Assembly: GCA_038078835.1 (NCBI GenBank) | Contig: JBBTQI010000001.1 | Coordinates: 722-64,721 of the forward strand | Length of the DNA: 64,000 nt | Reading direction: 5' to 3' | Source of the DNA: Patescibacteria group bacterium | Lineage (GTDB): Bacteria > Patescibacteriota > UBA1384 > XYA2-FULL-43-10 > 1-14-0-10-43-13 | Part shown: in pieces, positions 1 to 58,056 of the stretch | How the letters are laid out: each line of letters starts with the position of its first letter | How positions within the stretch are numbered: position 1 is the stretch's first letter | The notes under the pieces: model-generated | The model's database searches: none | The model's input: the letters and a program-made list of their open reading frames with translations, nothing else | What the model was told of the DNA's origin: nothing | Made by a program: the position numbers and the translations under genes

Positions 1-707
1 AAGCCTCTGGCCTTTGGCCTCTGGCCTTTGGCCTTGGCGCTGTAAACACTATGATCCACCCCATTATAAATCACAGCAATTTTCTGCGGCGAAACCCGGT
101 ATGTCTCAATAATATCCTTCTTTGATGTTCCGGACACGGTAATAATCTTGGCCGAATCGTGTACCGCCGACTTCATCACCGCCCGGAAAGCGATACGTTT
201 GAGCGAGTTTTGCCGGTGGAGGTGGCCGAACATCGTCAGATCGTGGACGGTCACGACATATCTGCCGCGGTAGCGAAGAGGATGATTGAATTGGGTAAAG
301 TGGACAAGATCAAACTTTTTGGCGTTTAGATAGGAGAGTAGTCTCGTCTGCTCTGCCACGGAGTAGTGGGGAATATCGAGTATACAAACAGTCAAGTTAG
401 GATATCGTTTATCGGTCACGAGGTCTGTATCGTTAGGGGTCTGTCGGCCTTCGGCTCTGAGGCCGCTCAGGCTCGAATAGTTACGTAACCGCTCGATGCT
501 ACCGATACGAGCTTCGTTACCCTGACCGCTCGACGACCTGACGACCACATTTAACCACTCCTTCACCGCTTTCACTCCGGCCGGTCTGATCAGCAAAGTA
601 TATTGATTGGATTTATCTAATGCCAAAATGCCCCGCACGATCTCTAGGGTGTAGCGGCTGACCGACTCCCCCACGCCAATAAAACGACCATCAATCAAAA
701 TTTTCAT
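1..707 (-). CDS. Glycosyltransferase family 1 (GT4-like), N-terminal portion; C-terminus lies beyond window start
   Basis: Reverse translation from ATG at 705-707 reads MKILIDGRFIGVGESVSRYTLEIV...VVTVHDLTMF..., typical GT4 N-domain. The open frame runs to position 1. Codons at 1-45 are a GGCC-type tandem repeat encoding KAKGQRPKARG. Confidence 0.6.
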   Translation of the reverse strand, partial: MKILIDGRFIGVGESVSRYTLEIVRGILALDKSNQYTLLIRPAGVKAVKEWLNVVVRSSSGQGNEARIGSIERLRNYSSLSGLRAEGRQTPNDTDLVTDKRYPNLTVCILDIPHYSVAEQTRLLSYLNAKKFDLVHFTQFNHPLRYRGRYVVTVHDLTMFGHLHRQNSLKRIAFRAVMKSAVHDSAKIITVSGTSKKDIIETYRVSPQKIAVIYNGVDHSVYSAKAKGQRPKARG

Positions 708-6029: not shown

Positions 6030-6150
6030 CTCCTACAAAATTACAAATTTATCGAAACTACAAATACTACAAAACTATGAATCAGCGATCCCTCTTTGTT
6101 TGTGATTTTGTAAGATTTGTACTTTTGTGTAATTTGTAATTTTGTAGGAG
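6030..6150. repeat. MITE-like element with perfect 19-bp terminal inverted repeats (CTCCTACAAAATTACAAAT)
   Basis: tcctacaaaattacaaatt at 6031-6049 is the exact reverse complement of aatttgtaattttgtagga at 6131-6149. Internal arms are CAAAT/ATTTG-rich. The right TIR supplies the AGGAG SD of the downstream gene. Confidence 0.7.
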
Positions 6151-8740: not shown

Positions 8741-8778
8741 GATTTATTTGGTATTTGTTATTTGATGTTTGGAGTTTA
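8688..8778. repeat. CAAAT/ATTTG palindromic element (copy 3)
   Basis: aattccaaatcacaaataacaaatg paired with atttggtatttgttatttgatgtttgg. Overlaps the 3-prime end of the GT1 gene and precedes the flippase start. Confidence 0.6.
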
Positions 8779-14070: not shown

Positions 14071-16326
14071 TTACTTGCTGTCTTGCTTACTTGCCTGCTC
14101 CTCGGAGCCTTGGCGCAGTGGGGCTGTCTTGCTGACAAAAACGATGTCGGCAATCGCATTTTCCCCGGCGACATTGATGATTTTGATCTCGTCGTCCGCT
14201 TTAATATCGATATCGCCCAGCTTGCGCCAAACAAACTTTTCCACTCCAACATCCTTGTCAACTTGGAACTTGTCACCCTTCGGGTGATCGCCCGCAGGGC
14301 GAAAAACTGAAAACTGGAAACTTCCTGACGAGCCTCCGACAAGGTGGCGAATCCAGAGCTCATAGGAGCCGCTCTCAGTCGCTTTTCCTGACAGAACGCT
14401 CTCCGGCTTGTCGGTGTAGATAAAATCCTGCCGCAGTTGGGTAAAGAGGTGTTTGCGCCAGAAATCATACCGTCCCCGACTCCAACCATCTTCATAGTAG
14501 GCAAACCCCCTTGCCCACTCCGTTATCGGCAATTGTTTAATTGCCTTATTGCCCCACTGTCCCCTTGCCGAATTGCCAATTTTGGTTATTCGATCATTGG
14601 AATTTATTTGGGATTTGTTGTTTGGATTTTGGAATTTGAAAATATGGATATTTTCCCCGAACCTCTTTGTTTCCACCAATCCCTCCTTTGATCTCACCAA
14701 TGCCAGAAGATCGGTCTGATTCCACTTTTTGACGATAACCGGATCGGTCTCTCGCCAAAGATTGGAGGCTTGAGCAAAGCGGCTCTCCGTATCCAGACGA
14801 AGAATGACGCAATCAACGCCGCCCTCTGCCAGCAGAGAGGCAAATTCGCCCTGATCATGCTTTTCGTAAAATTGCGACACTAATTCATTGCGATAGAACC
14901 GCTCGGCCGTCGGCAAAAAAGAGAAGGTCGCGCCATCGTCAAGGCGCGGCACACCCAGCGCCAGAGCCAAGAGATCGGAGTTGGCCGCATCGCGAAATTC
15001 GGCCCGCTCATCTTTAAAGTAGACAAAGCCCAGTCCCGGCGGATAATAGGCCTTTTGACACACACCGCTATCAGCCAGATAATTTTTCAGTTCCCGATAC
15101 TCCGCCGGCACTTTGGTGAGCGGCAGGTAACCGGCATAGTCAAACGTTAAATAGGGCGCGATGATAAATAAGGCGCTGCCGGCAAGCAAGGTCTTAAGGC
15201 CGGAGGCTAAAGGCCGGAGGCTAAAGGCCGATAAGCAAGCGAAAAGATAATCCAAGCCAAAGGCAAAGAGAATAATGGCGGCGGCCGCGACAATGAATTG
15301 GAGATGATAGATCTCGCGGAAAATACCCAGCGCCGGTATCCGCTCAAACAGCGCGACAAAGATTGGCCCCAACGGTCCGCTCGGACCCTTGGGAAAGGGG
15401 GCAACCGATATTAACGTCAATATGCTGGTCAGCGCCAATTCGCGGCGGGGACGATTCCCGAGGCCGAAAAGAGCCGCCAACCAGAAGACAGCCAAACCAA
15501 AAAGATAGCGGGGATCATGCGAGAGGGCGTAAAAGAAATTATGGGTAATCTGGTGATCGGAGAAGTTCAGAAAATTCCCGGCGCTGTGGGGCATCATTCG
15601 CATATACTCCAGCGTTGTGACGGCCACTGCCCTAATCTGCTCCGCACCCTGATCATAGCTCAAAGACAAGACGAACCAGGGCAGAAGAAAGAGGACAAGA
15701 GCCGACCAAGAGAAGATCAAATTAAAGAAACGCTCTCGTCGTCGCCCGGCGGCAACGAGAAGGTTAATCATCAAAAAGAGGGTCAGAAGCAGGCCCGCCT
15801 GGACTTGGGCAAAAACAAGCGAATAAAGAAAACCCAAACCAAGATAGTGCCGCCAGTTTTTTTTCTTGATATTAAAATAAAGGTGGAGAAAAAAGGGCAA
15901 GGCGGCGAAGGCCAAAAGCGACCAGCGGAAACCAACAATTGTTCGGACAAAAAGATAAGGATTAAAGGCGTAAACCAGAGCCGAAATCGTGGCAGCGAGC
16001 CGGTTTACGCCTTGCGACTTAGCGAAAAGAAAAAACCCGGCGGCGGCCAGAGCGTGAAGAAGAATAAGAAAGAGAGCGAAACTGAACTCCGGTCGAAATA
16101 GACCCAGCGGGGCCAGAAGAATCAAGCCGTTTTTGCTGGCAAAGTCAAAGGGATTGCCGGCCCGAAAATCGCCAAACTCCCGCCAAAGATTTCTCATATC
16201 CAGAAGCGGCCAATCCCAATCATAACGAAGGGGCAGGCCGTCTGATCGCAAATGCGATAAAACCAAAACAGCAAGCATCAATAAAGATACCGCAATCACT
16301 TGTTTTGATTTGATTATGTTAAACAT
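14071..16326 (-). CDS. Large GT-C fold membrane protein (YfhO/ArnT-like) with C-terminal extracytoplasmic domain
   Basis: 751 aa with an about 12-TM N-terminal region and a soluble C-terminal domain. Carries in-frame repeat insertions at 14581-14645 and 15193-15236. Confidence 0.55.
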   Translation of the reverse strand: MFNIIKSKQVIAVSLLMLAVLVLSHLRSDGLPLRYDWDWPLLDMRNLWREFGDFRAGNPFDFASKNGLILLAPLGLFRPEFSFALFLILLHALAAAGFFLFAKSQGVNRLAATISALVYAFNPYLFVRTIVGFRWSLLAFAALPFFLHLYFNIKKKNWRHYLGLGFLYSLVFAQVQAGLLLTLFLMINLLVAAGRRRERFFNLIFSWSALVLFLLPWFVLSLSYDQGAEQIRAVAVTTLEYMRMMPHSAGNFLNFSDHQITHNFFYALSHDPRYLFGLAVFWLAALFGLGNRPRRELALTSILTLISVAPFPKGPSGPLGPIFVALFERIPALGIFREIYHLQFIVAAAAIILFAFGLDYLFACLSAFSLRPLASGLKTLLAGSALFIIAPYLTFDYAGYLPLTKVPAEYRELKNYLADSGVCQKAYYPPGLGFVYFKDERAEFRDAANSDLLALALGVPRLDDGATFSFLPTAERFYRNELVSQFYEKHDQGEFASLLAEGGVDCVILRLDTESRFAQASNLWRETDPVIVKKWNQTDLLALVRSKEGLVETKRFGENIHIFKFQNPNNKSQINSNDRITKIGNSARGQWGNKAIKQLPITEWARGFAYYEDGWSRGRYDFWRKHLFTQLRQDFIYTDKPESVLSGKATESGSYELWIRHLVGGSSGSFQFSVFRPAGDHPKGDKFQVDKDVGVEKFVWRKLGDIDIKADDEIKIINVAGENAIADIVFVSKTAPLRQGSEEQASKQDSK
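14581..14645. repeat. CAAAT-family element copy inside CDS (in-frame, encodes FKFQNPNNKSQINSNDRITKIG)
   Basis: ttggaatttatttgggatttgttgtttggattttggaatttg. Same orientation relative to the coding strand as the other intragenic copies. Confidence 0.55.
15193..15236. repeat. GGCC-type 13-mer tandem repeat (AAGGCCGGAGGCT x about 2.7) inside CDS
   Basis: cttaaggccggaggctaaaggccggaggctaaaggccg. In-frame, encodes ...SAFSLRPLASGLK.... Related copies at 1-45 and 57326-57390. Confidence 0.6.
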
Positions 16327-16703: not shown

Positions 16704-18293
16704 TTATCTCATGATCAAATCCCCTTCTAATCTCAAACTCGTCAGACCGCAAGAACCCGCCTTTGACTCCGGATAGCACTCGGCCTTTAAAAAGACAACC
16801 GACGCTTGACCATTAATCTTTATTTGTTCCTCGAACTTACCCGGAATCTCCTCTCCCTCATCGTCAAGCCTATGAGCCAGCACTCGCCAATCTTTATTGT
16901 CCAGAGAATAAAACAGTCTGACTTTCTCTTCTTTGCTTTGACTGCCATCTGCTTCAACTCTTAAGCGCTTAGCTGGATAGAGTGTGTTGACTCTAATCCG
17001 ATACGACTTGCCCTTTTTAACGCCCACTATGCCGTTTTGGCGGTTAAAGGTGTAAAACACATCGTTACTATCACGATCTTCCGGTATTATACTTAAAAAG
17101 TCGGCATAATTTCCCTGCGTTTGGTAAAAATATCTTCCTTCTCCTTGGCCAAAATCTTCAACTCTGGCTCCGTTTAATAATTCGGGGTCGCCCGATTGGC
17201 GGCGAAGGAGATGCAACTTAAAGTAAAAATCACCCAGCTCCTCCCCGCTTCCGTCAGCCAAGCGCTTTGCCCCCTGGCCGTCGGCATAATCTCCGCCCCT
17301 CCTTGAACCATGAATAGACAAATAGCTCCAAGGAGTCACCTTGGCATTAGCGGCATCAATACCGATAAAATAATACTTGTCCCGCTCCAGATTATAGCTC
17401 AAAGGTAAACGATACACCCCGCTCCCGTTCTCCTCTTCGTAGTACTTGAGGCTCTTTAAATTAAAGAAGTACTGGGTGAGAACCTTCGGCTTCATTATAA
17501 AACGGCCATCAACATACTCCGCCTCGTTTAATTGCAAAACATAATTGTCCTCGCTTTGGCCGCGATAGGATAGTTTCAGGCTAATGCCAGTCAGTATCCC
17601 ATCGCTCACCTTAAAGGTCTGGCCGGCGACCCGGCGGCTACGCCAGAAGCGGTAAAGGGAAGCAAGATTCTTGGGCTCGACCGGAGCGATTAACTCGTAA
17701 TTGTAAAGATTGTTTTCCAGATACGGCTTCAATTTTTCGGCTTCCTCCAGCGAGGATGTCTCCAGTTTGACGAGGTGAAAATTTCTTAAAAATACCCTGT
17801 TGTCATCATAATTTTCTGCTCGCCTAATCATGATATTTTGATAGTTATCATCGGTTTGGAAGTAGAGTTCATGCCGGCTGTAAAACGGCTGATTCTTGCC
17901 GACTATCTCGCCAATCTTTTGCTGGCCATTAAACTTTGAGTCGGTCAGTATCTCCAAAGGAGAATCATCCAGCTCCTCGGGTGAGAAAATCTCGGCATAA
18001 GACACTCTCTCAAAAAAATCTTCTGGGTACAACATTCCGTTTGGACGAACTTTTAAATCAAAGACTAATCGATATGTTTCCCCGGCGCCACTACCAATAA
18101 CGTTAATGAATTTATAATCATTTTTTGCGCTATCAAGAACAAGGTTTCCGTCCCCGAATAACTGTTTCGACGAGGCGATATTGACTTTGGGACGATCATA
18201 AAAAACAACCGTTGACAACAAGATAGCGATCACTAATAAATAGCGGCCGTTTCCTTTTATCGCTTTTACAACAAAATCATATCTGCTCTTCAT
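16704..18293 (-). CDS. Signal-anchored secreted protein (529 aa), paralog of 21279..22874, function unknown
   Basis: N-terminal TM/signal anchor then a Y/N/D/G-rich beta-type extracytoplasmic domain. Shares the motif RLVFDLKVRP versus RLLFDLEAVP with its paralog. Confidence 0.5.
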   Translation of the reverse strand: MKSRYDFVVKAIKGNGRYLLVIAILLSTVVFYDRPKVNIASSKQLFGDGNLVLDSAKNDYKFINVIGSGAGETYRLVFDLKVRPNGMLYPEDFFERVSYAEIFSPEELDDSPLEILTDSKFNGQQKIGEIVGKNQPFYSRHELYFQTDDNYQNIMIRRAENYDDNRVFLRNFHLVKLETSSLEEAEKLKPYLENNLYNYELIAPVEPKNLASLYRFWRSRRVAGQTFKVSDGILTGISLKLSYRGQSEDNYVLQLNEAEYVDGRFIMKPKVLTQYFFNLKSLKYYEEENGSGVYRLPLSYNLERDKYYFIGIDAANAKVTPWSYLSIHGSRRGGDYADGQGAKRLADGSGEELGDFYFKLHLLRRQSGDPELLNGARVEDFGQGEGRYFYQTQGNYADFLSIIPEDRDSNDVFYTFNRQNGIVGVKKGKSYRIRVNTLYPAKRLRVEADGSQSKEEKVRLFYSLDNKDWRVLAHRLDDEGEEIPGKFEEQIKINGQASVVFLKAECYPESKAGSCGLTSLRLEGDLIMR

Positions 18294-20892
18294 CTCTCTG
18301 TCCTCGCCTTACCAGTAGGTACCGCAAACTTGCCAACATGGCTAACGCTGATATAATCAATCCCAGATAGAATAATCTCTGTGGCCAGAACTCAATAATT
18401 AATTCGAGGCTCTTGGTGCCATCGGGATTGGTTTGACAATGGCCGCTCTCTTGGCAAAACCTTTCTGCATTGACAATCCATGCATTAGCGTAACCGTTTA
18501 CTTTAAGATGGGTTTGAGCATCGCCAAGAGGAGCCTTAAACCAGGTTTCGGCAACTCCACCATTACCTAGATTATCATTTTGAATGGTTCCTTGGAAGTT
18601 TTTGGACACAAAGTCAATCTTGTTCCGATCGCCTAAAGTTGACACCAAACCTCGATTAACATAATCAGCCAGCTCCTCCCGAGTTGCCCCATCCGCCTCA
18701 TTCCCCCCTGGAATTTGATAAGAATTCAGCAGGTCAGCAGGTAAGCTAGTAAGCGAGTCAGCTGTCTTGCTATCTTGCTGTCTTGCTATCTTGCTTATAT
18801 AAATCTTCCACCCCCTATGGTACGCCTCATTAAAAACCAGCAGGAAGTCTTCCCTGGCCTGATGTGCAACAACGCGATATTTGACCGGGGAGATTTTCTT
18901 GAATTCAATTGCCGGAGGATTAACCGTTTCTTCCGCCAAGCGCGCCATGGATTCGGCTTTATTCGGATTGTCGCCGCCAAAGACTACTGCCGATGCCGTC
19001 TCCTTCGGCCAAATATCCAGAATTTTGGCCGGCACTTCATTTGATTTGACGATTTTTCGAGGAACGTAAATATGCGGGAGGAAAGATTGGCCGTTCAGGC
19101 GGTAGAGAAAAAAGTCGCCCCAGATTTGTACTAAAGAGAAGCGTTCACTTCTGAGCATGCTTGCGATCATCTCTCTGTTAATCTTGTTTTTATAGACTTC
19201 CTCATTGACATTATCCCGACGGAAAATAACATAACGCGTATTCAAAATCGCCAAATAGCGATCGATCTCTTCGGAGAAATTCTGAAATTCATTCTCGTAC
19301 CGACGATAAAGATCGGCTAATAGTGGTGACGATTGCGGATTAAGACCGATGCTGTTACCGTACTGGTTCAAAATTAAATAGGGGGCGGGACCGAGTAAAT
19401 TCCAGAGCGGGTCAACACCGACGCTTGACCAGCGGTAAATCGTCCAGGAGCCGGAGGGAGAGCCGGCATTATCGGGCAAAATCAGGTTGCGTTGGTCAAG
19501 GCGAATCCGCTTAACTCGCTCTGCCCCTGCATAATAATCCACCGGAATAGAGTAGTAGCGTTTAAGAAATTTATTGGGGATCACCTCGTTCCGGGGAATG
19601 ATGCCATTAATAAAGAAGGGGTAGGCGTTAATGGCAATCGCTCCCAATGTTAGAGCCAGAGCCAGCCAGCCCAACTTCCTCCGATAAGCAAATACTGCTG
19701 ATAGAGCGAGCGCCAAGAAAATCGACAGGACAAGAATGAGAATCGGATAGAATTTTTCCATCGAGAAACGGAAGATCCGAAAGGGCGTGTTGTCAATCAG
19801 CCAGGCAAAGGGAGCAGCCAGAGGATCATGAATGCCCTTAATAAGAAAGATTAAAACTAGCGCTGTTACCGCCCACACAAAGTATCTCTTCAAGTACTTG
19901 CCCTTTTCCCAGAGAAAAAAAGTCCAGGGCAACAAAGCCAAAAAGTATCCGGCCAGGATTATAAGCGGTTTGGTAAAGTAATATTTCCCGAAGAGATAAT
20001 AATTGGGATCACGTGTCGCCCAGAATCCTTGAAGGCGCAAAACCTCAAAAAAGGAAGTGAAGCGAAACTCATAATTCCGCAAGTTTCCATTGTCAACCCC
20101 GGCGCTCTGGCCCATAAACTTGCTCGATTCAAAAAAAGAGAGTGGGCGCAGAATCCACCATAGGTTGGCTAGTAGGTAAATCAGGGTAAATTGGAGATAA
20201 GTCGTTTTATTCTGCCAAATATCCCGCCGGTAGATGATGCCTAAGGGAATTAAGATCATAAAGAAGGCCAAAAAGTAAGCCGGATTCTCAAAAGCCGGGA
20301 CAGCTAAGATGTTTACAAAAATAAAATATAGAAAATAACGTGACTTAACCCTTTTCTCCTTCGCTTCAAATATCCTGATCAGATAATAAATAAGCAAGGG
20401 GGCGATGCTGTATATGAACATGGCGATCAGGAAACCGTGTCCCCAGCGATAGTTATAGAGAAAGGGATTAAGGGAGTAAAACAGGGCACCAACTAAACTG
20501 ATCAAGTTCAGTGCCGGCTGTTTCGCTAAGTTCTTTCTGACAAAATGCCGCACCAGAACAAATGCCGAGAGGCCCGAAAAAAAGAACCAGATTAAAAAAA
20601 GCATCTTCTCGGTGAGAGAGATATTGCGGGTGAAAAAGTGAATCAAGACAAGCAATGAGGTATAAATAAGCGAAGCAGCGTTCCGGTCTTGGGAAACACC
20701 CAGACCGCGAGTGTGATCCCAGCGATACCAGAGTTTCTCCGTGTCAGTGATCGGCTCAAGCATAAAGGAGAAATCGGCCACGTTGATAATGTTATTACCG
20801 TGAAACCAGAAAAAGACCTGACTGGCCAGAACGGCCAAAAGCAGGACATAAAACCAATCTCGGCTGAGAATTTTCTTGAACTTATCGATCAT
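18277..20892 (-). CDS. Large GT-C fold membrane glycosyltransferase-like protein (871 aa) with C-terminal beta domain and terminal TM anchor
   Basis: About 13 TM helices then a soluble domain. The C-terminus ...NGYANAWIVNAERF...LELIIEFWPQRLFYLGLIISALAML mirrors the YfhO-type C-terminus. Paralog of the 832 aa protein. Confidence 0.55.
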   Translation of the reverse strand: MIDKFKKILSRDWFYVLLLAVLASQVFFWFHGNNIINVADFSFMLEPITDTEKLWYRWDHTRGLGVSQDRNAASLIYTSLLVLIHFFTRNISLTEKMLFLIWFFFSGLSAFVLVRHFVRKNLAKQPALNLISLVGALFYSLNPFLYNYRWGHGFLIAMFIYSIAPLLIYYLIRIFEAKEKRVKSRYFLYFIFVNILAVPAFENPAYFLAFFMILIPLGIIYRRDIWQNKTTYLQFTLIYLLANLWWILRPLSFFESSKFMGQSAGVDNGNLRNYEFRFTSFFEVLRLQGFWATRDPNYYLFGKYYFTKPLIILAGYFLALLPWTFFLWEKGKYLKRYFVWAVTALVLIFLIKGIHDPLAAPFAWLIDNTPFRIFRFSMEKFYPILILVLSIFLALALSAVFAYRRKLGWLALALTLGAIAINAYPFFINGIIPRNEVIPNKFLKRYYSIPVDYYAGAERVKRIRLDQRNLILPDNAGSPSGSWTIYRWSSVGVDPLWNLLGPAPYLILNQYGNSIGLNPQSSPLLADLYRRYENEFQNFSEEIDRYLAILNTRYVIFRRDNVNEEVYKNKINREMIASMLRSERFSLVQIWGDFFLYRLNGQSFLPHIYVPRKIVKSNEVPAKILDIWPKETASAVVFGGDNPNKAESMARLAEETVNPPAIEFKKISPVKYRVVAHQAREDFLLVFNEAYHRGWKIYISKIARQQDSKTADSLTSLPADLLNSYQIPGGNEADGATREELADYVNRGLVSTLGDRNKIDFVSKNFQGTIQNDNLGNGGVAETWFKAPLGDAQTHLKVNGYANAWIVNAERFCQESGHCQTNPDGTKSLELIIEFWPQRLFYLGLIISALAMLASLRYLLVRRGQRDEEQI
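18721..18806. repeat. About 80-nt segment near-identical to 23296..23372, containing 8-mer tandem repeat (RTCTTGCT x4)
   Basis: gaatttgataagaattcagcaggtcagcaggtaagctagtaagcgagtcagctgtcttgctatcttgctgtcttgctatcttgct. Encodes QQDSKTADSLTSLPADLLNSYQI in-frame. Confidence 0.6.
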
Positions 20893-21278: not shown

Positions 21279-22874
21279 TTATTTGATAACCAACTCGGCT
21301 TCGGCGGTCAGCTCCTTCAAGCCAAAGAGCGGGATCTTCTGCTCCATTGTGTCGGCGGGATCATAAGTAACTTTAAGGTAGAGTGTTCTAGTCGCGCCAT
21401 CTCCGGTGATCATCTCAGAGAAAATCTGTTGAGAGGCGTCCGCGCTGTCCTTTTTGACTGTGATCGCCTGCCAGTTTTGGCCGTCGGCTGAATAAGAAAT
21501 AAGGCAGTTCGTGAACTGATTTGAAGTCGGTTTGGCCCTGATAGCAAAGCGTTTATAAGGGTAGAGGGTGTTAAATTTGTAGGTGAAGTCGGCTTTATCG
21601 ATGATCCGGCCGGAGATGCCGCGCTGAACGTTATCGTAAAAAACCAGATTATCGCTCGTTTGGCGGAAATCAGTCAAGTCGAGAAAATCACTAGAGCTGC
21701 CTGAGGTACGATAAGTGTAACGGCCCTCGCCGCCGCCCAGATCTTCGATAATGGCGCCGGTCAACACCGGCTCACCCTGAGTTTGGATAAAGTCAGCGCC
21801 GTAAGCTTTGAAATAAATATCGCCCGAGGCTTTCTTCGGCTTGTTGCGGACAAAGACCTTGGCCTCGCCCGGAGAGTAATTATCCGCCCTCGACCCCTTG
21901 AGGCTTAGGATGTTCAAGTAATTAAAATTGGCTGCTTCATTACTAATGCCGATATAATAAAGTTTGCCCGCCTCGAGCCGGGCGGCCAGCGGAAAGCGAT
22001 AAATGCCCCGATTCGGATCGATCAATAACCGGTTGGCCTGCTCTTTGTTGAAATAATAGTATGCTTTGCGGTCGCGGCTGAAATCAACCTCCCCGCGATC
22101 GTTCGCTTCGCGCAGTTCAAGAAAATAATTTCCGCCGCCGCCGCTACCAGAGAACTTTAGCGCCAGATCAACTTGAGAAATGATATCGGCTTCGGCCCGA
22201 AGGGTCTGGCCGATCCTCTGACCCTTGCGCCAAAATCGATACTCTTTATTAAGATCAACCGAACCCGCTCCGGCAATGACGCCGTTGAAATCGGATTGAC
22301 CAACGATCGTCGGCTTCAAGCCGGCAAGAGAACTGCCATCAAGGCGGAGAGGATAAGAGCGCAGATTAGAGATACGGAGCCGTCCGGGAAAATCAAGGTT
22401 GCCTTTACCGAGTTTTAGCTTCGTTGCTCCAAATCTTGAAACAAAAGTCGTCTCAGTAATCATTTTCCCCTGATTCAGTCCAACCTGCGTCCAACCAAGT
22501 ACCTGCTCCTCACCAAAATCAGAGAGTAGGGACGCTGTCATCTCAACGCGAGGCATCTCCGACGGCAGAGCTTTGCCGTCATACTCCGGAACCGCTTCAA
22601 GATCAAAGAGAAGACGATAAGCTTGGTCCGGTCTGACCGATATCTCCCGAGTGAGGGTTATCACCTCCACCGAAGAAGCAATGTCAAATGTTCCCCGCTC
22701 GGCGCTTTTGAGTTCCTCAATCTGGCGGACCATGATTTCCTCGCTCTGGCGGGGCGGATTAAAATCTTTGCCGAAAAGAAACGCCAGCCCCGATATTAAA
22801 AAGAAGAGCAAATAGCGTTTGTTCTCTCTAACTAAGCAATAAAGATTGCTAGACATTTGCAACTTTCTGACCAT
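21279..22874 (-). CDS. Signal-anchored secreted protein (531 aa), paralog of 16704..18293
   Basis: Same architecture and length as the 529 aa protein. Confidence 0.5.
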   Translation of the reverse strand: MVRKLQMSSNLYCLVRENKRYLLFFLISGLAFLFGKDFNPPRQSEEIMVRQIEELKSAERGTFDIASSVEVITLTREISVRPDQAYRLLFDLEAVPEYDGKALPSEMPRVEMTASLLSDFGEEQVLGWTQVGLNQGKMITETTFVSRFGATKLKLGKGNLDFPGRLRISNLRSYPLRLDGSSLAGLKPTIVGQSDFNGVIAGAGSVDLNKEYRFWRKGQRIGQTLRAEADIISQVDLALKFSGSGGGGNYFLELREANDRGEVDFSRDRKAYYYFNKEQANRLLIDPNRGIYRFPLAARLEAGKLYYIGISNEAANFNYLNILSLKGSRADNYSPGEAKVFVRNKPKKASGDIYFKAYGADFIQTQGEPVLTGAIIEDLGGGEGRYTYRTSGSSSDFLDLTDFRQTSDNLVFYDNVQRGISGRIIDKADFTYKFNTLYPYKRFAIRAKPTSNQFTNCLISYSADGQNWQAITVKKDSADASQQIFSEMITGDGATRTLYLKVTYDPADTMEQKIPLFGLKELTAEAELVIK

Positions 22875-25347
22875 CCGATCTCACTCTGTCTCGCCGATAA
22901 TACCAAATTAGAAATCCCAAACAAGACAAAAAAGTAATTCCGCTTATAGCCAAGCCCAAATAAAAAACTCTCTGAAGCCAATATTCGATCACGATCTCCA
23001 TTTCGTAACCGCCATCTGAATTTAGCGCACAACCGCCGTTTTGGCAAGCCGCCGCCGGGTCAATTACCCAGGCGTTGGCGAAACCGTTGGCCGTAAGATG
23101 CGGCGTCTCAAAGGAAGGCTTAAAATACGTCTCGTAAAATGGCCCCCCCCCTAGATTATCATTCTGTATTGTACCCCGATTCTCCCGGGAGATAAACTTA
23201 ATCGTGCCCTTCTCCCCCAACGTCGTCACCAAATCTTTGGCAATGTAATCTTTAAGCTCATCTCTACTCGCCTGTTCCCCCTCATTTCCCTTCAGAATTT
23301 GATAAGAATTCAGCAGATCAGCAGGTAAGCTAGTAAGCAAGTCATCTGTCTTGCTGTCTTGCTGTCTTGCTAATTTATAGATTTTCCACTTCTCGTCAAA
23401 GCTTTCATTGAGCACAAGGCTAAAAGGTTTGCGGACGCTACTGATCTTCAGTCGGTATTTAACCGGCGAGATTTTTTTGTATTCAATCCGCGGTGCTTGC
23501 TTCCCGTCAATTTGACTTACCAGTTGATCGATTCCCCTAGGGTTTTGGCTGCGTAAAAAGACGGCTGGCGAAGTATTTTTATTAATATCGCCGCCAAAGC
23601 CTTGCAAAGCAGCTATCTCCCCGTTGATAATCCGGGCGTCGCCGGTCGCATATAAATGCGGCCGGGTATTTTTCAGGCGATAGATGACCGTTTGCCCCTC
23701 GGCAAACACCTGCTCCAGCCGACCGCCTAAAACCTCCTTCTCGAGCGCTTGCCACATTTGCCGGCGGCCATCGTTATTAAGATCGTAATTTGAGATATTT
23801 TTTCGCAAAACGATATATCTAACCCCTGTCGGCCATAAGGCGTCCGCAATATTGCCCTCGACGGTTGACTTCTTTAACATATCCAGAAAGTCAGTCGGGC
23901 CAAGGTGGCGATCGGTGGCGGTTAATAAGCCGGGAATGGGAGAGTAGATGGCAAAGATATCGCGAATGCCGCGGGAATATTTCGGGTCATCGTCAACAAC
24001 CATACCACTATAGGAATAGGGCAAATAAAGCACCTTGATATCAGCCTCTTGCCGCGCCATAAACTCCTCGGCCCGATACGCCTCAGGCGGGAAGATCTTG
24101 GTTGTCAGGCGACTGTCGTTGCCGGCGCGATGCTCCCAGGCCGCGAGCTCCCCCGACCACCAAGGGACAAGATAGGTAATCCAAATAGTAAAAAGAAGGA
24201 TGATCGCTATTCTATATTTGCGGTACGAAAGCCAAAAATGATCTACCGCCAGGGCAATCAGAACAGAGAAAGCAAAAACCGATAGCACGCTAAAACGGGC
24301 CAAATCCCGTATCACATTTGAGAAGGGAATATTGAGGAGCACTTCCCGATGCAAGCTAAGATAATACATCTCCAGAGGCACCAGGGCTACAAGCCAGAGT
24401 GAGACAATCAGCCTTCTTCTCTCTTTAATAAAAAGGGTTGGCAGCACTAACAGGGGCACTAAAAATGACAGGAGTGAAAGACCATAGTTGTTAATGATTG
24501 TTTCGTACTGCATATTGTAGAGCGAGCCCCAAAGACGAATTATATTAAGAGGATAAAAATTAAGCGTTGTTCCCCGACTTGTAGTAGCAAAGACATATTC
24601 CGAGCCGGCCACTCCCTCATCCGAGAAAAAAATCTGTTGCAAAAGAGTCGGAGACAATAGGAGAAGGGCAATTATATTGACACTTAAAAGGACCTTTATT
24701 ATTCTGCCGGGACTACCGGCCGTCTTGTAACGGTAGTATGTAAACGCTAACAGAATAATATTGAGCCAAACAAGCGATTGGGGCTGCAGAAAAGAAATTG
24801 CTATCAAAAAAGAAGTGATGACAACCGCCCGGTTGTTTCCGTTAGCCACAGCCTCAATAAAGTACTTTGCCGCCAGCGGTGCAATACCCAAGAACAAGAT
24901 AGCGTAAAACCAGCCGATGATCGCGTAGTTAAACATCACCGGAGTTGTGACATAAAATACCGCCATCAGAGCAGCAACCGGATAGCCAAACTTCAAGTAC
25001 CTGAGAAAGTTAAAGAAAGAATATCCGGCTAGGGCAAACAGGGTGAGAATTAATAATTTTATATGAACCTCGCCGCCCAGCCCGATCAAAGACATGGCGT
25101 TGTTAACAAGTTGCCTCGATAGATCAAATCCAACGGTTTGATTGCGAAACGCGACAATACTGTTAAAGTCCCAAGCGTAAAATGCCATCTGCAGGGATTT
25201 GTATGTCTGAATTTTAGTTAAGGGAAAAGCAATATCTTCACCGATAATAAATCCGGGGAGAGCAACAACGCGGAAGAGAAGCGCAACTGATATCGCGGCA
25301 AAAAAGATGAGGGGTAACAATATTTTTACTTTAGGGAAAATCTTCAT
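22849..25347 (-). CDS. Large GT-C fold membrane glycosyltransferase-like protein (832 aa), paralog of 18277..20892
   Basis: C-terminal region ARQQDSKTDDLLTSLPADLLNSYQI...NGFANAWVIDPAAAC...EIVIEYWLQRVFYLGLAISGITFL is collinear with the 871 aa protein. Confidence 0.55.
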   Translation of the reverse strand: MKIFPKVKILLPLIFFAAISVALLFRVVALPGFIIGEDIAFPLTKIQTYKSLQMAFYAWDFNSIVAFRNQTVGFDLSRQLVNNAMSLIGLGGEVHIKLLILTLFALAGYSFFNFLRYLKFGYPVAALMAVFYVTTPVMFNYAIIGWFYAILFLGIAPLAAKYFIEAVANGNNRAVVITSFLIAISFLQPQSLVWLNIILLAFTYYRYKTAGSPGRIIKVLLSVNIIALLLLSPTLLQQIFFSDEGVAGSEYVFATTSRGTTLNFYPLNIIRLWGSLYNMQYETIINNYGLSLLSFLVPLLVLPTLFIKERRRLIVSLWLVALVPLEMYYLSLHREVLLNIPFSNVIRDLARFSVLSVFAFSVLIALAVDHFWLSYRKYRIAIILLFTIWITYLVPWWSGELAAWEHRAGNDSRLTTKIFPPEAYRAEEFMARQEADIKVLYLPYSYSGMVVDDDPKYSRGIRDIFAIYSPIPGLLTATDRHLGPTDFLDMLKKSTVEGNIADALWPTGVRYIVLRKNISNYDLNNDGRRQMWQALEKEVLGGRLEQVFAEGQTVIYRLKNTRPHLYATGDARIINGEIAALQGFGGDINKNTSPAVFLRSQNPRGIDQLVSQIDGKQAPRIEYKKISPVKYRLKISSVRKPFSLVLNESFDEKWKIYKLARQQDSKTDDLLTSLPADLLNSYQILKGNEGEQASRDELKDYIAKDLVTTLGEKGTIKFISRENRGTIQNDNLGGGPFYETYFKPSFETPHLTANGFANAWVIDPAAACQNGGCALNSDGGYEMEIVIEYWLQRVFYLGLAISGITFLSCLGFLIWYYRRDRVRSDGQKVANV
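23296..23372. repeat. Second copy of the about 80-nt conserved segment / 8-mer repeat (GTCTTGCT x3)
   Basis: gaatttgataagaattcagcagatcagcaggtaagctagtaagcaagtcatctgtcttgctgtcttgctgtcttgct. Confidence 0.6.
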
Positions 25348-49523: not shown

Positions 49524-51152
49524 CTATCTCGTCTTGGCGGTTTTTTCCCTCGGCGAGAAATCCATTAAGTGGCCCAAGACTTTGCCGGCCGCTCTAAAGA
49601 GAAATTTGACATCGCTAAGATTTCTGACGCCCAGAATTTTTCTCAAGATAAACTTCGGCGTGATAAATGATTTATAAAGACCTTGCGTCAACTCTTTGAT
49701 GTCCTCCTCTGTCAAAGGTGATTTCATCACTGCCATGCGCTGGTCGTAATCCTCCCAGTCCTCCGTTAAGAGCCAGCCATTCTTTTTGCACTCGGCAAAG
49801 AGCGGCGTGCCCGGGTAAGGGATAACGATGGTTGCCTGAAGAGTGTCGACATAACCTTTATCAAAAAGCTTCTTTGACAATTCGATTGTTCTTTCGGCGT
49901 CTCTCTTGCTCTCCCAGGGATACCCCATCATCGTCGTTATATGGGGCTCAAGTCCGCCCTTCTTGGCCATCCGGACACCTTTTTCGATTTCCGCTACCTT
50001 GAGGTTTTTATTGATCCGGTCGAGCGTCTTTTGGTTCGCCGATTCCAAGCCGTAGAGAATAAAGCGAAAACCGGCCTTCCCCATCAGATTATACTCCTCC
50101 TGATTTAGAGCTTTAAGGCGCATATTGCAGTCGATTTTGATCTTCTTGTTGTAACCGCGCTCAATCATCCCCTCACAGAACTCTTTGAGCCATGATCCGA
50201 TGGGAAAGGAGCCGGAGTCGTCCATAATCTCCTTAATGTGATATTTTTCAATCAATGTGCCGATTTCGTCCAGCACTCGCTTGACCGAGTGCTTGCGGTA
50301 ATCCTTACCGGGATAAAGGGTGGTCCAGCTGCAGAACCCACATTTTCCCCACCAGCAATCGCGAGCGGCATAAGTGTAGGTCCCAGGTGTTCGCTTGTAG
50401 TTACCGTTCTTGTAGGCGTAAAGATGCCACTTGGTGAGATCCCGGTCGATCAACGGGAGCTCATCAAGATCGTGATTAAGCTCAAAATGCCCCGTGTTTT
50501 GGTAGTTGGTAGCCAGTGATTGGTATTTGGTATTTAGGGATTGAGTTTTGGAACTTATTTGGGATTTGGGATTTGGGATTTGGGATTTTCCAGAGCGGTA
50601 CCAAATTCCCGGCTCGAGTGATTCGCCGTGATTAAGATGATTAGCGATATTCAATAGAAGAAAATCATAATCGCCGCCGGTGGCAATATAATCTACCTTT
50701 GAATTTTCCATTGATTCCCGCGGCAAAGCAGTCACATGATCACCGACCAGGACAATTTTCAAATTCCAGTCTTCAGTTTTCAATGATTCTTCTTTGAGAA
50801 CATCGATTACCTTCCAGTGGCGCTTGACTACCGGCGCTTTGGTTTCCAGCATTATAAGATCCGGCTTAAACCGCTTAATCCGCTCCAGCCACTCCTCCTG
50901 TGTCAACTCCTCGGCAATACCGTCATCCCACATCACTTCATAACCCTGATCCTGAAGCAGTGAGGCCGCGTATGAGGGGACCATCGGATAAATATAGGTC
51001 GGATTATTAAACCATTGAAACTGGCGGTTCTGGCCCAAACAGGGGGTGCCCTTCTCGTCCGGCATCGGCGGATAGGAAATCGCTACCTTGAATTTCGCGT
51101 TCTTCCTCCGCTGATCTTCTGTTGGTTTGGCAATATGTTTAATTGGTCTCAT
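49524..51152 (-). CDS. B12-binding domain radical SAM enzyme (class B rSAM, probable sugar methyltransferase/modifier)
   Basis: N-terminal cobalamin-binding-like domain (KPDLIMLETKAPV...KIVLVGDHVT), then CWWGKCGFC (Cx4Cx2C) and an rSAM core. Contains an in-frame CAAAT-family element at 50497-50590 in the interdomain linker. Confidence 0.6.
   Translation of the reverse strand: MRPIKHIAKPTEDQRRKNAKFKVAISYPPMPDEKGTPCLGQNRQFQWFNNPTYIYPMVPSYAASLLQDQGYEVMWDDGIAEELTQEEWLERIKRFKPDLIMLETKAPVVKRHWKVIDVLKEESLKTEDWNLKIVLVGDHVTALPRESMENSKVDYIATGGDYDFLLLNIANHLNHGESLEPGIWYRSGKSQIPNPKSQISSKTQSLNTKYQSLATNYQNTGHFELNHDLDELPLIDRDLTKWHLYAYKNGNYKRTPGTYTYAARDCWWGKCGFCSWTTLYPGKDYRKHSVKRVLDEIGTLIEKYHIKEIMDDSGSFPIGSWLKEFCEGMIERGYNKKIKIDCNMRLKALNQEEYNLMGKAGFRFILYGLESANQKTLDRINKNLKVAEIEKGVRMAKKGGLEPHITTMMGYPWESKRDAERTIELSKKLFDKGYVDTLQATIVIPYPGTPLFAECKKNGWLLTEDWEDYDQRMAVMKSPLTEEDIKELTQGLYKSFITPKFILRKILGVRNLSDVKFLFRAAGKVLGHLMDFSPREKTAKTR
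50497..50590. repeat. CAAAT-family element inside CDS with TTGGGA x4 hexamer run (encodes KSQIPNPKSQISSKTQSLNTKYQSLATNYQ)
   Basis: tttggaacttatttgggatttgggatttgggatttgggatttt. In-frame within the rSAM gene. Confidence 0.6.
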
Positions 51153-57003: not shown

Positions 57004-57080
57004 TTTTCCAAATGACTAATGACGAATATGACGATCCCCTTATTGGTTATTCGTTATTTGGATAATTTGTCATCCATTTG
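57004..57080. repeat. CAAAT/ATTTG palindromic element (intergenic, between GT2 and rmlD)
   Basis: ttccaaatgactaatgacgaatatgacg paired with ttattcgttatttggataatttgtcatccatttg. Confidence 0.5.
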
Positions 57081-58056
57081 TGGCGCGATTGCGTAAGTAA
57101 TCGCCCAGCATTTCTTGCCACGGCCTAACCTCGATCCCTAATGCTGATTTAATCTTCTCTTTGGAGAGATAGGAGTAAGCCGGACGCCTGGCCACCTGAG
57201 GATATTCTGCACTAGAGATAGGCTTTAAGTCAAGAGTTGTCCCGGTTTGAGCGAAAATTTCTTTGGCAAAATCATACCAGGAGCACGCCCCCTCGCCGGA
57301 GAAGTGGTAGATACCACATGGCAAGCTTAAGGCCGGAGGCTTAAGGCCGGAGGCTACATCAATACTGCCTTCGGCCTTTGGCCTTAGGCCTTCGACGATC
57401 TGGTTAATGAAACTGACCAGATCCCCCGTATAAGTCGGCGAGCCGACTTGATCATTGACGACCGACAACGAATCGCGCTCTTTGGCCAAGTGCAGCATTG
57501 TCTCAACGAAATTTGTGTCGGGATGTCCCTCCGGCAATTCGCCGAATATCCAGGCTGTCCGGATAATGTAATAGCCGCCCTTCGGGGACTGTCCCCCTGA
57601 GAGCCTGCCCCGTACTCGATACGGGGGGACTGTCCCCTTGTATGCTCTCTCAACCGCCAGCTCCCCTTCATACTTTGTCATACCGTACACCGAGAGCGGA
57701 TGGGGCTCGTCGGTTTCGACGTACGGGACGCCATTTTCGCCGTCAAAGACATAATCGGTGGAGATGTAAATCAGGTTTACTCCGGCCGCAGCCGCGGCTT
57801 TGGCGACATTCTCGGTGCCGGCAACATTGATCCGGCGGCACAGCGCCTCGTTCTCCTTGGCCTTGTCAACTTGAGTGTAAGCCGCCCCGTGGATAATCCA
57901 ATCCGGTTTCTCCCTTGATATGACCGCGCTGACTTTATCCGGATCGGTGATATCCATATCATCGGAATCAGTCAAAATCAGCCGGTACTTAGTACCCAGT
58001 AATTCGGAAATCTTATGGCCAAGCTGGCCTTTTGCGCCGGTAACCAGAACCTTCAT
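57070..58056 (-). CDS. rmlD: dTDP-4-dehydrorhamnose reductase with two in-frame repeat-element insertions
   Basis: MKVLVTGAKGQLG...IHGAAYTQVDKAE...NVAGTENVAKAAAAAGVNLIYISTDYVFDG, the RmlD signature. 328 aa versus about 290 typical. Extra segments coincide with the repeats at 57326-57390 and 57581-57640. Confidence 0.8.
   Translation of the reverse strand: MKVLVTGAKGQLGHKISELLGTKYRLILTDSDDMDITDPDKVSAVISREKPDWIIHGAAYTQVDKAKENEALCRRINVAGTENVAKAAAAAGVNLIYISTDYVFDGENGVPYVETDEPHPLSVYGMTKYEGELAVERAYKGTVPPYRVRGRLSGGQSPKGGYYIIRTAWIFGELPEGHPDTNFVETMLHLAKERDSLSVVNDQVGSPTYTGDLVSFINQIVEGLRPKAEGSIDVASGLKPPALSLPCGIYHFSGEGACSWYDFAKEIFAQTGTTLDLKPISSAEYPQVARRPAYSYLSKEKIKSALGIEVRPWQEMLGDYLRNRATNG
57326..57390. 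repeat. GGCC-type element: TTAAGGCCGGAGGC x2 plus inverted copy (GCCTTCGGCCTTTGGCCTTAGGCC)
   Basis: In-frame within rmlD, encoding GLRPKAEGSIDVASGLKPPALSLP. Same 13-mer as at 15193-15236, and a one-mismatch variant at 1-45. Confidence 0.6.
57581..57640. repeat. Palindromic element: GGGGACTGTCCCC x2 flanking a CCCGTACTCGATACGGGG hairpin
   Basis: ggggactgtcccc at 57584-57596 and 57625-57637. In-frame in rmlD, encoding TVPPYRVRGRLSGGQSPKGG, which is absent from canonical RmlD. Confidence 0.55.

What the first reader, a model, noticed from the sequence alone, without database searches (positions are those of the whole stretch)
50497..50590. In-frame repeat element (TTGGGA x4 run) in the linker of a B12-binding radical SAM enzyme
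The rSAM gene at 49524..51152 carries the element in its interdomain linker, between the cobalamin-binding-like domain and the Cys motif. It encodes SGKSQIPNPKSQISSKTQSLNTKYQSLATNYQ. The TTGGGA hexamer run could also cause replication slippage, giving an on/off phase-variation switch for this glycan-modifying enzyme.
Basis: seen in the sequence. Interest (0 to 1): 0.65.

Follow-up and report, generated by a model that had tools for sequence, protein, structure and literature searches.

The report
Slippery 7-base repeat inside an enzyme loop
A perfect four-copy repeat of seven bases sits in frame in a floppy surface loop of a vitamin-B12-type radical SAM enzyme of an uncultivated bacterium. The same loops in related enzymes are hot spots for such repeats, and in relatives their length changes have broken the gene.

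Summary
It is in frame in the B12-binding radical SAM gene (49524..51152, minus strand). It replaces a 6-residue beta-hairpin turn with a 32-residue loop that AlphaFold2 predicts to be disordered.

Most family members keep the 6-residue turn. Relatives with longer linkers nearly all carry heptamer arrays, with different units, at this loop or at two others nearby. Across 154 sequences (about 1.1 Mb), 25 of 31 perfect heptamer arrays of roughly 4-5 units lie inside this gene, all in those three loops (p about 1e-12).

Five split alleles in other organisms are frameshifted exactly at such arrays. One ON/OFF pair differs by 1 SNP and one 25-base repeat block over 3.35 kb. In the window, a change of 1 or 2 units would truncate the enzyme at residues 196-225.

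For this species only the intact allele is on record (6 contigs). Two related lineages kept their arrays unchanged across about 1% divergence.

Verdict: a slippage-born heptanucleotide microsatellite in a permissive loop, with real frameshift potential. True reversible phase variation is plausible but not shown.

The parts
49524..51152 (-). B12-binding radical SAM gene (542 aa) that carries the repeat. It sits in a long minus-strand glycan-synthesis gene cluster, 8 nt downstream of a GT2 gene.
   Evidence: ORF list; Pfam PF02310 at residues 60-157 and PF04055 at 266-425; identical to a Patescibacteria MAG protein found on 6 contigs; GT2, GT4, NTP-transferase and UDP-glucose dehydrogenase neighbours.
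50557..50588 (-). Perfect heptanucleotide tract. It reads (ATTTGGG)x4.6 on the + strand and (AATCCCA)x4 on the coding strand. The + strand is the template strand and carries four GGG runs with 4-nt loops.
   Evidence: TRF period 7, 4.6 copies, 100% matches, score 64; sequence read directly.
50499..50556 (-). Decayed continuation of the heptamer array, about 8 units of AATACCA / ACTACCA / AAACTCA type. It appears homologous to the CAAAC[CT]A-type second array of close orthologs.
   Evidence: TRF period-21 row 50499..50587; heptamer parsing; orthologs L086, L113 and L083 end with the same ...TNY[RKQ] peptide.
50499..50594 (-). The whole 32-residue loop (residues 187-218), in place of the family's 6-residue turn between GIWYR and NTGHF (called 'site B' here).
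   Evidence: Alignment A1; 42 loci with a 6-residue linker; AF2 pLDDT below 50 at 190-214, flanked by strands 183-186 and 217-219.
50760..50792 (-). Second variable loop, inside the B12 domain (residues 121-131, ESLKTEDWNLK; 'site C'). The DNA is weakly heptamer-periodic here, and perfect heptamer arrays sit at this position in several orthologs.
   Evidence: Period-7 match is 0.67 in the window copy and 0.76-1.0 in L004, L028, L090, L019, L037 and L144; 51 nt is the commonest length of this stretch, in 40 of 78 loci. Perfect arrays map to residues 120-124.
50331..50357 (-). Cluster-binding Cys motif CWWGKCGFC (C266, C271, C274), downstream of the insert.
   Evidence: Translation; these columns are invariant in alignment A1.

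Best explanation
The feature is a heptanucleotide microsatellite, (AATCCCA)n on the coding strand, that grew by replication slippage inside a structurally permissive beta-hairpin turn of a B12-binding radical SAM enzyme. It survives because its total length keeps the reading frame.

At the protein level it adds about 26 hydrophilic, disordered residues with no conserved sequence. I infer that these have no catalytic role.

At the DNA level the four perfect units remain slippage-prone. Gain or loss of 1 or 2 units would truncate the protein after the B12 domain (OFF). Gain or loss of 3 units would only lengthen or shorten the loop by 7 residues.

The same three loops of this enzyme family are hot spots for arrays of about 4-5 heptamer units in many lineages. 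Array length changes are the main visible cause of split alleles in relatives. The tract therefore behaves as a local mutational hot spot that can switch the gene off, and in principle back on.

Shown: the anatomy, the insertion relative to orthologs, the predicted disorder, the family-wide hot spot, and array-borne frameshifts in relatives including one strain-level ON/OFF pair. Inferred: slippage as the generating process, switching in this organism, and any adaptive value.
For: Anatomy:
- Period-7 perfect tract plus a decayed array.
- The native linker is 6 residues in 42 loci from many phyla. The distance between the GGDYDF and DCWWG anchor motifs is at least 240 nt and mostly 240-243 nt.

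Orthologs:
- Nearly all longer linkers in close orthologs are heptamer arrays with different units: CAGTAGT, TAGGACT, TCGGAAC, CGACCAA, AGTCCAC, GCTACAA, ACCACAA and others. Runs are often 4 perfect units.
- Among 153 non-redundant loci plus the window, 25 perfect arrays of 3.6 or more units lie in the gene (228 kb) and 6 in the flanks (874 kb), binomial p = 1.5e-12. All map to residues 120-124, 174-178 or 186-209.
- Other periods from 4 to 12 have almost no arrays of 4 or more units. The heptamer length distribution has a second mode at about 4.5 units.

Structure and RNA:
- AF2 predicts a disordered loop between two strands.
- The mRNA segment is unstructured (z = +1.07).

Frameshifts:
- Frameshifts lie exactly at the arrays in L162, L164, L166, L167 and L168.
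- L164 shows expansion of native codons: GAAATTC GAAATAC plus 2 units.
- L004 and L162 are ON and OFF with 1 mismatch in 3352 bp.
- Modelled slips in the window give stops at residues 196-225.

Literature:
- Heptamer SSRs are over-represented in many bacteria, prefer 4 units, and have been tentatively linked to polymerase slippage (PMC4692102).
- Intragenic heptanucleotide SSRs with frameshifts occur in H. influenzae (PMC2651432).
Against: - Only 4.6 perfect units. Described phase-variable heptanucleotide tracts have 8-38 units (PMC2651432).
- The window species shows one allele on 6 contigs and no truncated variant. The 90% cluster has a single member.
- L086/L087 and L037/L127 differ by about 1% in DNA, yet their arrays are identical. 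The arrays are therefore not extremely unstable, or frameshifts are purged.
- None of the 161 top-ranked loci was frameshifted, although ranking by score disfavours split genes.
- Three of the five array-borne frameshifts were picked because their protein tails looked repeat-like. Among the four picked blind, one was cut by a contig end and two of the three internal splits were at arrays.
- The native linker DNA has no general period-7 seed. Why these loops are hit so often is unexplained.
- Small repeat indels in metagenome assemblies could occasionally be assembly errors.
Confidence: 0.75

Rival explanations
1. It is a genuine contingency locus. [quoted passage not shown]
For: - The unit length is not a multiple of 3, and the tract is perfect.
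- The gene lies in a glycosyltransferase cluster.
- Arrays are strongly enriched in this gene relative to its flanks, across phyla.
- Perfect arrays recur although coding sequence should favour 3n periods.
- There is a strain-level ON/OFF pair, L004 and L162, and four more array-borne OFF alleles.
- Upstream GT2 genes in L163 and L168 also carry perfect heptamer arrays.
Against: - The tract is short, 4.6 units.
- Only ON alleles are recorded for this species.
- Arrays are unchanged over about 1% divergence in two lineages.
- At most 248 N-terminal fragments are on record, against 6158 proteins at E <= 1e-20 in the full-length search, and many fragments are simply cut by contig ends. Split alleles are therefore a small minority.
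- Neither reversibility nor any phenotype is shown.
Confidence: 0.3
2. It is a copy of a small dispersed or mobile repeat ('the element') that inserted in frame, like the Rickettsia palindromic elements (RPEs) or MITEs that land inside genes.
For: - Similar CAAAT-type heptamer arrays occur at 716-748, 8689-8713/8743-8777 and 14606-14641. AAGGCC-type arrays occur at 1-43, 15187-15235 and 57318-57400, giving 11 pattern matches against 1.6 expected.
- Some arrays come as inverted pairs that could form hairpins, including an in-frame one in the RmlD gene.
- Some orthologs show partly complementary first and second arrays (my own reading of the sequences).
Against: - The rSAM insert has no inverted partner and no RNA or DNA hairpin.
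- Copies in the window are not near-identical. The pattern search gave only 3 matches outside the array, against 1.6 expected.
- Units differ completely between close orthologs at the same site and evolve in place.
- L164 and L072 show arrays growing out of native codons.
- No terminal repeats or target-site duplications are visible.
Confidence: 0.08
3. It is a G-quadruplex element. (GGGATTT)4 on the template strand folds into a G4 that modulates transcription or replication through the gene. Four units are kept because four G-tracts are needed.
For: - The + strand carries exactly four GGG runs with 4-nt loops, plus a fifth GGG nearby.
- GGGNATC-type heptamer repeats in Xanthomonas and Nostoc prefer four units and form G4 in vitro (PMC4692102).
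Against: - Most arrays at the same loops in orthologs have no G-tracts on either strand (AAAATTC, AAATTCG, CGACCAA, GCTACAA, TCGGAAC), yet also have about 4-5 units. The four-unit preference therefore does not need G4.
Confidence: 0.07
4. The inserted peptide is itself functional, for example a selected flexible tether or interaction segment between the two domains.
For: - Inserts at this position are retained in frame in many members of the close clade.
- The composition is consistently hydrophilic, rich in K, S, Q, N and P.
Against: - There is no sequence conservation between close orthologs, and length ranges from 0 to 36 extra residues.
- Close relatives at 75-82% identity lack any insert.
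- The composition is simply what A/C-rich heptamers encode when read in all three frames.
- The segment is predicted disordered.
Confidence: 0.05

Closest known systems
Heptameric simple sequence repeats of bacteria: 'long SSRs', the GGGNATC repeats of Xanthomonas and Nostoc, the cyanobacterial STRR heptamers, and the four-heptamer elements of Geobacter metallireducens
   Same: 7-nt unit; head-to-tail perfect copies; a preferred length of about four units; several motif families scattered through the genome, sometimes as inverted pairs; found within as well as between genes in Geobacter (PMC4692102, PMC2700814). The window tract is GGGNNNN-type with four G-tracts.
   Different: The described repeats are mostly intergenic and under-represented in coding sequence. 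Here the arrays are concentrated in three loops of one enzyme family and are translated. The host is a Patescibacteria (CPR) genome, for which my two literature searches returned no such report.
SSR-driven phase-variable (contingency) genes for surface glycan modification in Haemophilus, Neisseria and Campylobacter, including intragenic heptanucleotide tracts in H. influenzae
   Same: A tandem tract whose unit is not a multiple of three lies inside the ORF of a gene in a glycan cluster. Length changes produce frameshifted alleles among close strains (L004/L162; PMC2651432).
   Different: The tract is much shorter: 4-5 units against 8-38. It lies mid-gene in a loop rather than near the 5' end. 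OFF alleles are rare. No switching rate or phenotype is known. The organism is an environmental uncultivated bacterium, not a host-adapted pathogen.
Rickettsia palindromic elements (RPE): selfish repeats inserted in frame into protein-coding genes (from my own knowledge: Ogata et al. 2000)
   Same: Repetitive DNA is tolerated in frame because it lands in surface loops of otherwise conserved enzymes. Several genes in one genome are affected: here the rSAM gene, the RmlD gene, and three large ORFs without a Pfam match.
   Different: RPEs are 100-150 bp palindromic mobile elements with near-identical copies. This insert is a one-orientation tandem heptamer array with lineage-specific units, best explained by in-place slippage.
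B12-binding (class B-like) radical SAM enzymes: HpnJ, AprD4, TsrM, OxsB
   Same: N-terminal B12-binding Rossmann-type domain plus radical SAM barrel. The best NCBIfam hit is HpnJ. The best structural match is AprD4 (6fd2), TM-score 0.61 relative to the query and 0.71 relative to the target.
   Different: The HpnJ score is 154 bits against a cut-off of 577.6, so the protein is not an HpnJ. Cys spacing is CX4CX2C. The substrate is unknown. None of the solved relatives is reported to carry repeat-encoded loops, as far as I know.

Membership tests
Heptameric SSR (long simple sequence repeat) | Head-to-tail copies of a 7-nt unit, perfect or near-perfect | tested here: met
   TRF: period 7, 4.6 copies, 100% matches, 50557..50588.
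Heptameric SSR (long simple sequence repeat) | Over-representation of period 7 relative to other periods and to chance | tested here: met
   Window: 6 period-7 arrays against 0.1 in shuffles. In 1.15 Mb of related loci, 27 perfect heptamer arrays of about 4 or more units against 0-2 for each other period.
G-quadruplex-forming GGGNNNN heptamer repeats (Rehm et al. 2015) | Four consecutive G-tracts on one strand | tested here: met
   (GGGATTT)4 on the + strand, read directly.
G-quadruplex-forming GGGNNNN heptamer repeats (Rehm et al. 2015) | Actual G4 folding, and a preferred location next to ORF ends in intergenic DNA | tested here: not met
   Location is mid-ORF, on the template strand. Folding cannot be tested with these tools.
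SSR-mediated phase-variable (contingency) locus | Tract inside the ORF with a unit length not divisible by 3, so that slippage changes the frame | tested here: met
   A 7-nt unit; modelled changes of 1 or 2 units give stops at residues 196-225.
SSR-mediated phase-variable (contingency) locus | Copy-number polymorphism with ON and OFF alleles among members of the same species | tested here: not met
   For the window species: 6 contigs with the identical protein, a 90% cluster with one member, and no N-terminal fragment above 74% identity. The feature is met in a relative: L004 ON and L162 OFF, 1 mismatch in 3352 bp.
SSR-mediated phase-variable (contingency) locus | High-frequency, reversible switching with a phenotype | not testable with these tools
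   Needs reads, cultures or reporter assays. Arrays unchanged across about 1% divergence in two lineages argue against very high rates.
In-frame mobile palindromic element (RPE/MITE-like) | Inverted-repeat or palindromic architecture able to form a hairpin | tested here: not met
   All units run in one orientation. RNA fold z = +1.07.
In-frame mobile palindromic element (RPE/MITE-like) | Multiple near-identical copies with defined ends | tested here: not met
   Pattern search with up to 2 mismatches gave only 3 loose matches outside the array, against 1.6 expected. Ortholog inserts have unrelated units.
B12-binding radical SAM enzyme | B12-binding domain plus radical SAM domain with a three-Cys cluster motif | tested here: met
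   PF02310 at 35.7 bits (cut-off 32.1) and PF04055 at 56.8 bits (cut-off 29.5). C266, C271 and C274 are invariant.
HpnJ (TIGR03471 equivalog) | Score above the curated cut-off | tested here: not met
   154.1 bits against a cut-off of 577.6.

The most novel reading that the evidence does not exclude
Three surface loops of this widespread B12-radical-SAM family are evolutionarily maintained heptamer-array 'switch sites'. In many uncultivated lineages (CPR bacteria, anammox bacteria, Nitrospinota, some archaea-labelled bins) arrays of about 4-5 heptamers are repeatedly regenerated there. The cause would be either selection for ON/OFF switching of a glycan or lipid modification, or a still unknown heptamer-specific, site-directed DNA process. 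This would be the first contingency-locus system described for the Candidate Phyla Radiation. It would also be a natural system in which to study why bacteria favour 7-nt repeats of four units.
Probability: 0.2. Interest if true: 0.75.

Novelty: new variant of a known kind. Interest (0 to 1): 0.55.

Why it matters
Translated heptanucleotide repeats inside a conserved enzyme are unusual, because coding sequence should favour repeat units of 3n bases. Here the opposite holds across a whole enzyme family: one gene holds about 80% of the perfect heptamer arrays found in 1.1 Mb of surrounding DNA, always in the same three loops, and natural frameshifted alleles map to those arrays.

If switching is real, uncultivated CPR bacteria would gain a simple bet-hedging mechanism for surface-glycan chemistry, which matters for their attachment to hosts and for phage escape. 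Even if switching is not real, the locus is a clean natural experiment. It shows how microsatellites are born, homogenised and purged inside proteins. It also bears on the unexplained bacterial preference for arrays of about four heptamers, which here cannot be attributed to G-quadruplexes.

For annotation, the result warns that split 'B12-binding' plus 'radical SAM' gene pairs in metagenome bins may be repeat-length variants of one gene.

Tried and rejected
1. Hexamer reading: rejected. TRF and direct reading give period 7.
2. Frameshifted alleles among 161 related loci, by tblastn: none found. I then realised that ranking by score hides split genes. An N-terminal query was used instead and did find them.
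3. 'Native seed' idea, that the conserved EIKNTG codons form a proto-heptamer repeat which explains the hot spot: not supported on average. Period-7 match is 0.315, no higher than other periods. It does hold in L164 and L072.
4. Structured RNA or hairpin in the insert: rejected (z = +1.07).
5. Dispersed identical 'element' copies in the window: only loose matches, 3 outside the array against 1.6 expected.
6. The idea that the 4-5 unit mode is just 'native 1-2 units plus 3 in-frame units': insert lengths at site C (+9 and +15 nt over the commonest 51 nt) do not fit.
7. Membership in HpnJ, BchE and other named B12-rSAM families: all far below their cut-offs.
8. An allele search by flanking DNA pattern in the public collections was not run.
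Full report
THE OBSERVATION

The window carries an ORF on the minus strand at 49524..51152 (542 aa). Pfam finds a B12-binding domain at residues 60-157 and a radical SAM domain at residues 266-425. The protein is identical to a protein annotated 'radical SAM protein [Patescibacteria group bacterium]' that is found on six contigs.

The repeat is not a hexamer run. TTGGGA does occur four times, but at 7-base spacing. Tandem Repeats Finder reports ATTTGGG x4.6 with 100% matches at 50557..50588, and a degenerate period-21 array over 50499..50587. On the coding strand the insert reads GGAA (AATCCCA)x4 AATAAGTTCCA AAACTCA ATCCCTA AATACCA AATACCA ATCACTGGCTACCA ACTACCA AAAC. That is about 12-13 heptamer units, perfect at the 5' end and decayed towards the 3' end. 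Three heptamers make 21 nt, or 7 codons, which explains the NPKSQIP-type peptide periodicity.

IS IT AN INSERTION, AND WHERE IN THE PROTEIN?

I aligned 55 homologues and examined DNA from 160 related loci drawn from genome and metagenome collections. The usual linker between the conserved GIWYR and NTGxF motifs is only six residues, for example ENGEIK. It has that length in 42 loci from many phyla. The distance between the GGDYDF and DCWWG anchor motifs is never below 240 nt and is mostly 240-243 nt.

An AlphaFold2 model was built from the alignment (mean pLDDT 80.4). It places the insert between two short strands, 183-186 and 217-219, with pLDDT below 50 for residues 190-214. The insert is therefore an extended beta-hairpin turn in the segment between the B12 domain and the Cys motif CWWGKCGFC (C266, C271, C274).

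WHAT RELATIVES SHOW

Nearly every ortholog with a longer linker has heptamer-periodic DNA at that place, and the units differ between orthologs:
- L083: CAGTAGT and ACCGCAA
- L084: TAGGACT and AAACCCA
- L085: TCGGAAC
- L086: CAGTAGT and CAAACTA
- L088: TACAAGA, AAATCCC and GCTACAA
- L093: CGACCAA
- L098: AGTCCAC
- L113: ACCACAA
- L004: GAAATCC and ATTCGAT
- L037: CAAAACT
- L072: AAATACG

Runs are often four perfect units. L005 carries an octamer array instead.

Two further loops behave the same way. One lies just before LEPGIWYR and carries, for example, (CCTCCAA)n in a Brocadiaceae bin and (AAAATTC)5 in L026. The other lies inside the B12 domain at residues 121-131; 51 nt is the commonest length there, and perfect arrays occur in L019, L037 and L090.

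Among 153 non-redundant loci plus the window, 25 perfect heptamer arrays of 3.6 or more units lie inside this gene (228 kb in total). Only 6 lie in the flanks (874 kb), binomial p = 1.5e-12. All 25 map to residues 120-124, 174-178 or 186-209. Other periods from 4 to 12 have almost no arrays of four or more units. The heptamer length distribution has a second mode at about 4.5 units. The window tract, at 4.6 units, is typical.

Closely related inserts share end peptides (...TNYR...TNYK...TNYQ) while their units differ by one or two bases. This pattern fits an inherited array that keeps being re-homogenised in place.

DOES ARRAY LENGTH CHANGE SWITCH THE GENE OFF?

In the window, adding or removing one or two units gives stop codons at residues 196-225. 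Three units keep the frame.

No frameshifted copy appeared among the 161 top-ranked loci, but that ranking disfavours split genes. A search with the N-terminal 186 residues returned 248 N-terminal fragments. I looked up seven of them:
- One was cut by a contig end (L163).
- One had a 1-nt indel away from any array (L165).
- Five were split genes whose frame changes exactly inside a heptamer array: L162, L164 and L168 at the GIWYR/NTG loop, and L166 and L167 at the loop before it.

Among the four fragments chosen blind, one was cut by a contig end and two of the three internal splits were at arrays. The other three fragments were chosen because their tails looked repeat-like.

L164 shows the native codons GAAATTC GAAATAC (E-I-R-N-T) expanded by two extra units.

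L162 and L004 come from different samples. They differ by one mismatch and one 25-nt repeat block over 3352 bp. The block (ATCCGAAATCCGAAATTCGAAACAA) is present twice in the intact allele L004 and once in the split allele L162. That is a strain-level ON/OFF polymorphism caused by repeat copy number.

EVIDENCE AGAINST FAST SWITCHING

For the window species only the intact allele is on record. The best N-terminal fragment is 74% identical, and the 90% cluster has one member. Two lineages that differ by about 1% in DNA (L086/L087 and L037/L127) have identical arrays.

Fragments are few relative to the proteins found by the full-length query: at most 248 against 6158 at E <= 1e-20. Described phase-variable heptanucleotide tracts in H. 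influenzae have 8-38 units (PMC2651432).

WHY HERE?

The mRNA segment has no structure (z = +1.07). The insert has no inverted partner. Copies elsewhere in the window are only loosely similar. A transposed element is therefore unlikely.

The idea that the conserved EIKNTG codons form a general proto-repeat is not supported on average, although it holds in L164 and L072.

The + strand, which is the template strand, reads (GGGATTT)4. This is a textbook G-quadruplex motif. It resembles the GGGNATC heptamers of Xanthomonas and Nostoc, which prefer four units (PMC4692102). Most arrays at the same loops in orthologs lack G-tracts, yet also have 4-5 units. G4 formation therefore cannot explain the pattern.

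The concentration of arrays in three loops of this one gene remains only partly explained. Tolerance of the loops to insertion is part of it. Selection for switchability, or a site preference of the slippage process, is not excluded.

CONTEXT AND FUNCTION OF THE ENZYME

The gene follows a GT2 glycosyltransferase gene by 8 nt. It is followed in turn by GT2 and GT4 genes. An NTP-transferase gene and a UDP-glucose dehydrogenase gene lie upstream. GT2 genes also lie immediately upstream of the gene in distant loci L164, L165, L167 and L168.

The best NCBIfam match is HpnJ, far below its cut-off (154 against 577.6 bits). The best structural match is the aminoglycoside diol-dehydratase AprD4. A sugar- or glycolipid-modifying role is a reasonable inference but is not shown.

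COMPARISON WITH WHAT IS KNOWN

Heptameric SSRs are known to be over-represented in many bacteria, with a suggested link to polymerase slippage. Four-unit heptamer elements are described in Xanthomonas, Nostoc and Geobacter (PMC4692102, PMC2700814). Intragenic heptanucleotide tracts with frameshifts are known in H. influenzae (PMC2651432). In-frame repeat insertions in enzyme loops are known from Rickettsia (my own knowledge).

Three things are new here:
- The host is a CPR bacterium. My two literature searches returned no report linking CPR with SSR phase variation.
- The arrays are translated, and they recur at the same three loops of one enzyme family across phyla.
- These short arrays demonstrably generate split alleles.

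VERDICT

The structural placement is right. It is supported by relatives but not demonstrated for this organism.

My best explanation is a slippage-born, still slippage-prone heptanucleotide microsatellite in a permissive disordered loop (confidence 0.75). I give about 0.3 that it serves as a selected ON/OFF switch.

Noticed in passing
window 57318-57400 and 57577-57651 (RmlD-like gene 57070..58056, minus strand): This dTDP-4-dehydrorhamnose reductase homologue has two in-frame insertions relative to the solved RmlD structure 1vl0. Residues 223-247 are encoded by two inverted AAGGCC-type heptamer/14-mer arrays. Residues 136-160 are encoded by DNA that holds two copies of the palindrome GGGGACAGTCCCC (4 matches against 0.03 expected).
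   Followed up: partly
window 14606-14641 and 15187-15235 (ORF 14071..16326, minus strand, no Pfam hit): The same large ORF carries an in-frame CAAATCC-type heptamer array (FKFQNPNNKSQINSN), similar in motif to the rSAM tract. It also carries a perfect 14-mer array, AAGGCCGGAGGCTA x2.5.
   Followed up: partly
window 18723-18798 and 23309-23378 (ORFs 18277..20892 and 22849..25347): Two paralogous large ORFs without Pfam hits each contain, in frame, a pair of octamer arrays in inverted orientation (AGCAAGAC-type followed by GCTTACTA/CCTGCTGA-type).
   Followed up: no
window 1-43, 716-748, 6033-6146, 8689-8777: Intergenic heptamer and octamer arrays, two of them as inverted pairs between same-direction genes: CTACAAAA / TTTGTAAT at 6033-6146, and CAAATAA / TATTTGG at 8689-8777. 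They look like terminator-type hairpins built from tandem repeats.
   Followed up: no
window 50331-50357; proteins P0152, P0155; locus L165: The cluster-binding motif of this family is CX4CX2C (CWWGKCGFC), not the canonical CX3CX2C, and is invariant in the alignment. A sub-family has CWWRKDGGCTFC, which is CX7CX2C.
   Followed up: no
proteins P0124 and P0154: At the same GIWYR/NTG loop these orthologs carry a different, longer insert (…SCHSEPTKCHPELVSGSLDSGSESGMT…). It looks like a translated palindromic repeat rather than a heptamer array, so the loop seems to accept other repeat types too.
   Followed up: no
L162 849-852: In the split (OFF) allele the downstream radical-SAM ORF starts at the native Met of LPMIDRDL and overlaps the stop of the B12-domain ORF by ATGA. 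The two halves might still be made as separate polypeptides.
   Followed up: no
L163 2212-2238, L168 1730-1766, L048 5498-5589: The GT2 genes just upstream of the rSAM gene in two loci also carry perfect heptamer arrays (TCTACTT x3.9 and TTTACTT x5.3). In L048 an inverted pair of heptamer arrays sits right after the rSAM stop codon.
   Followed up: no
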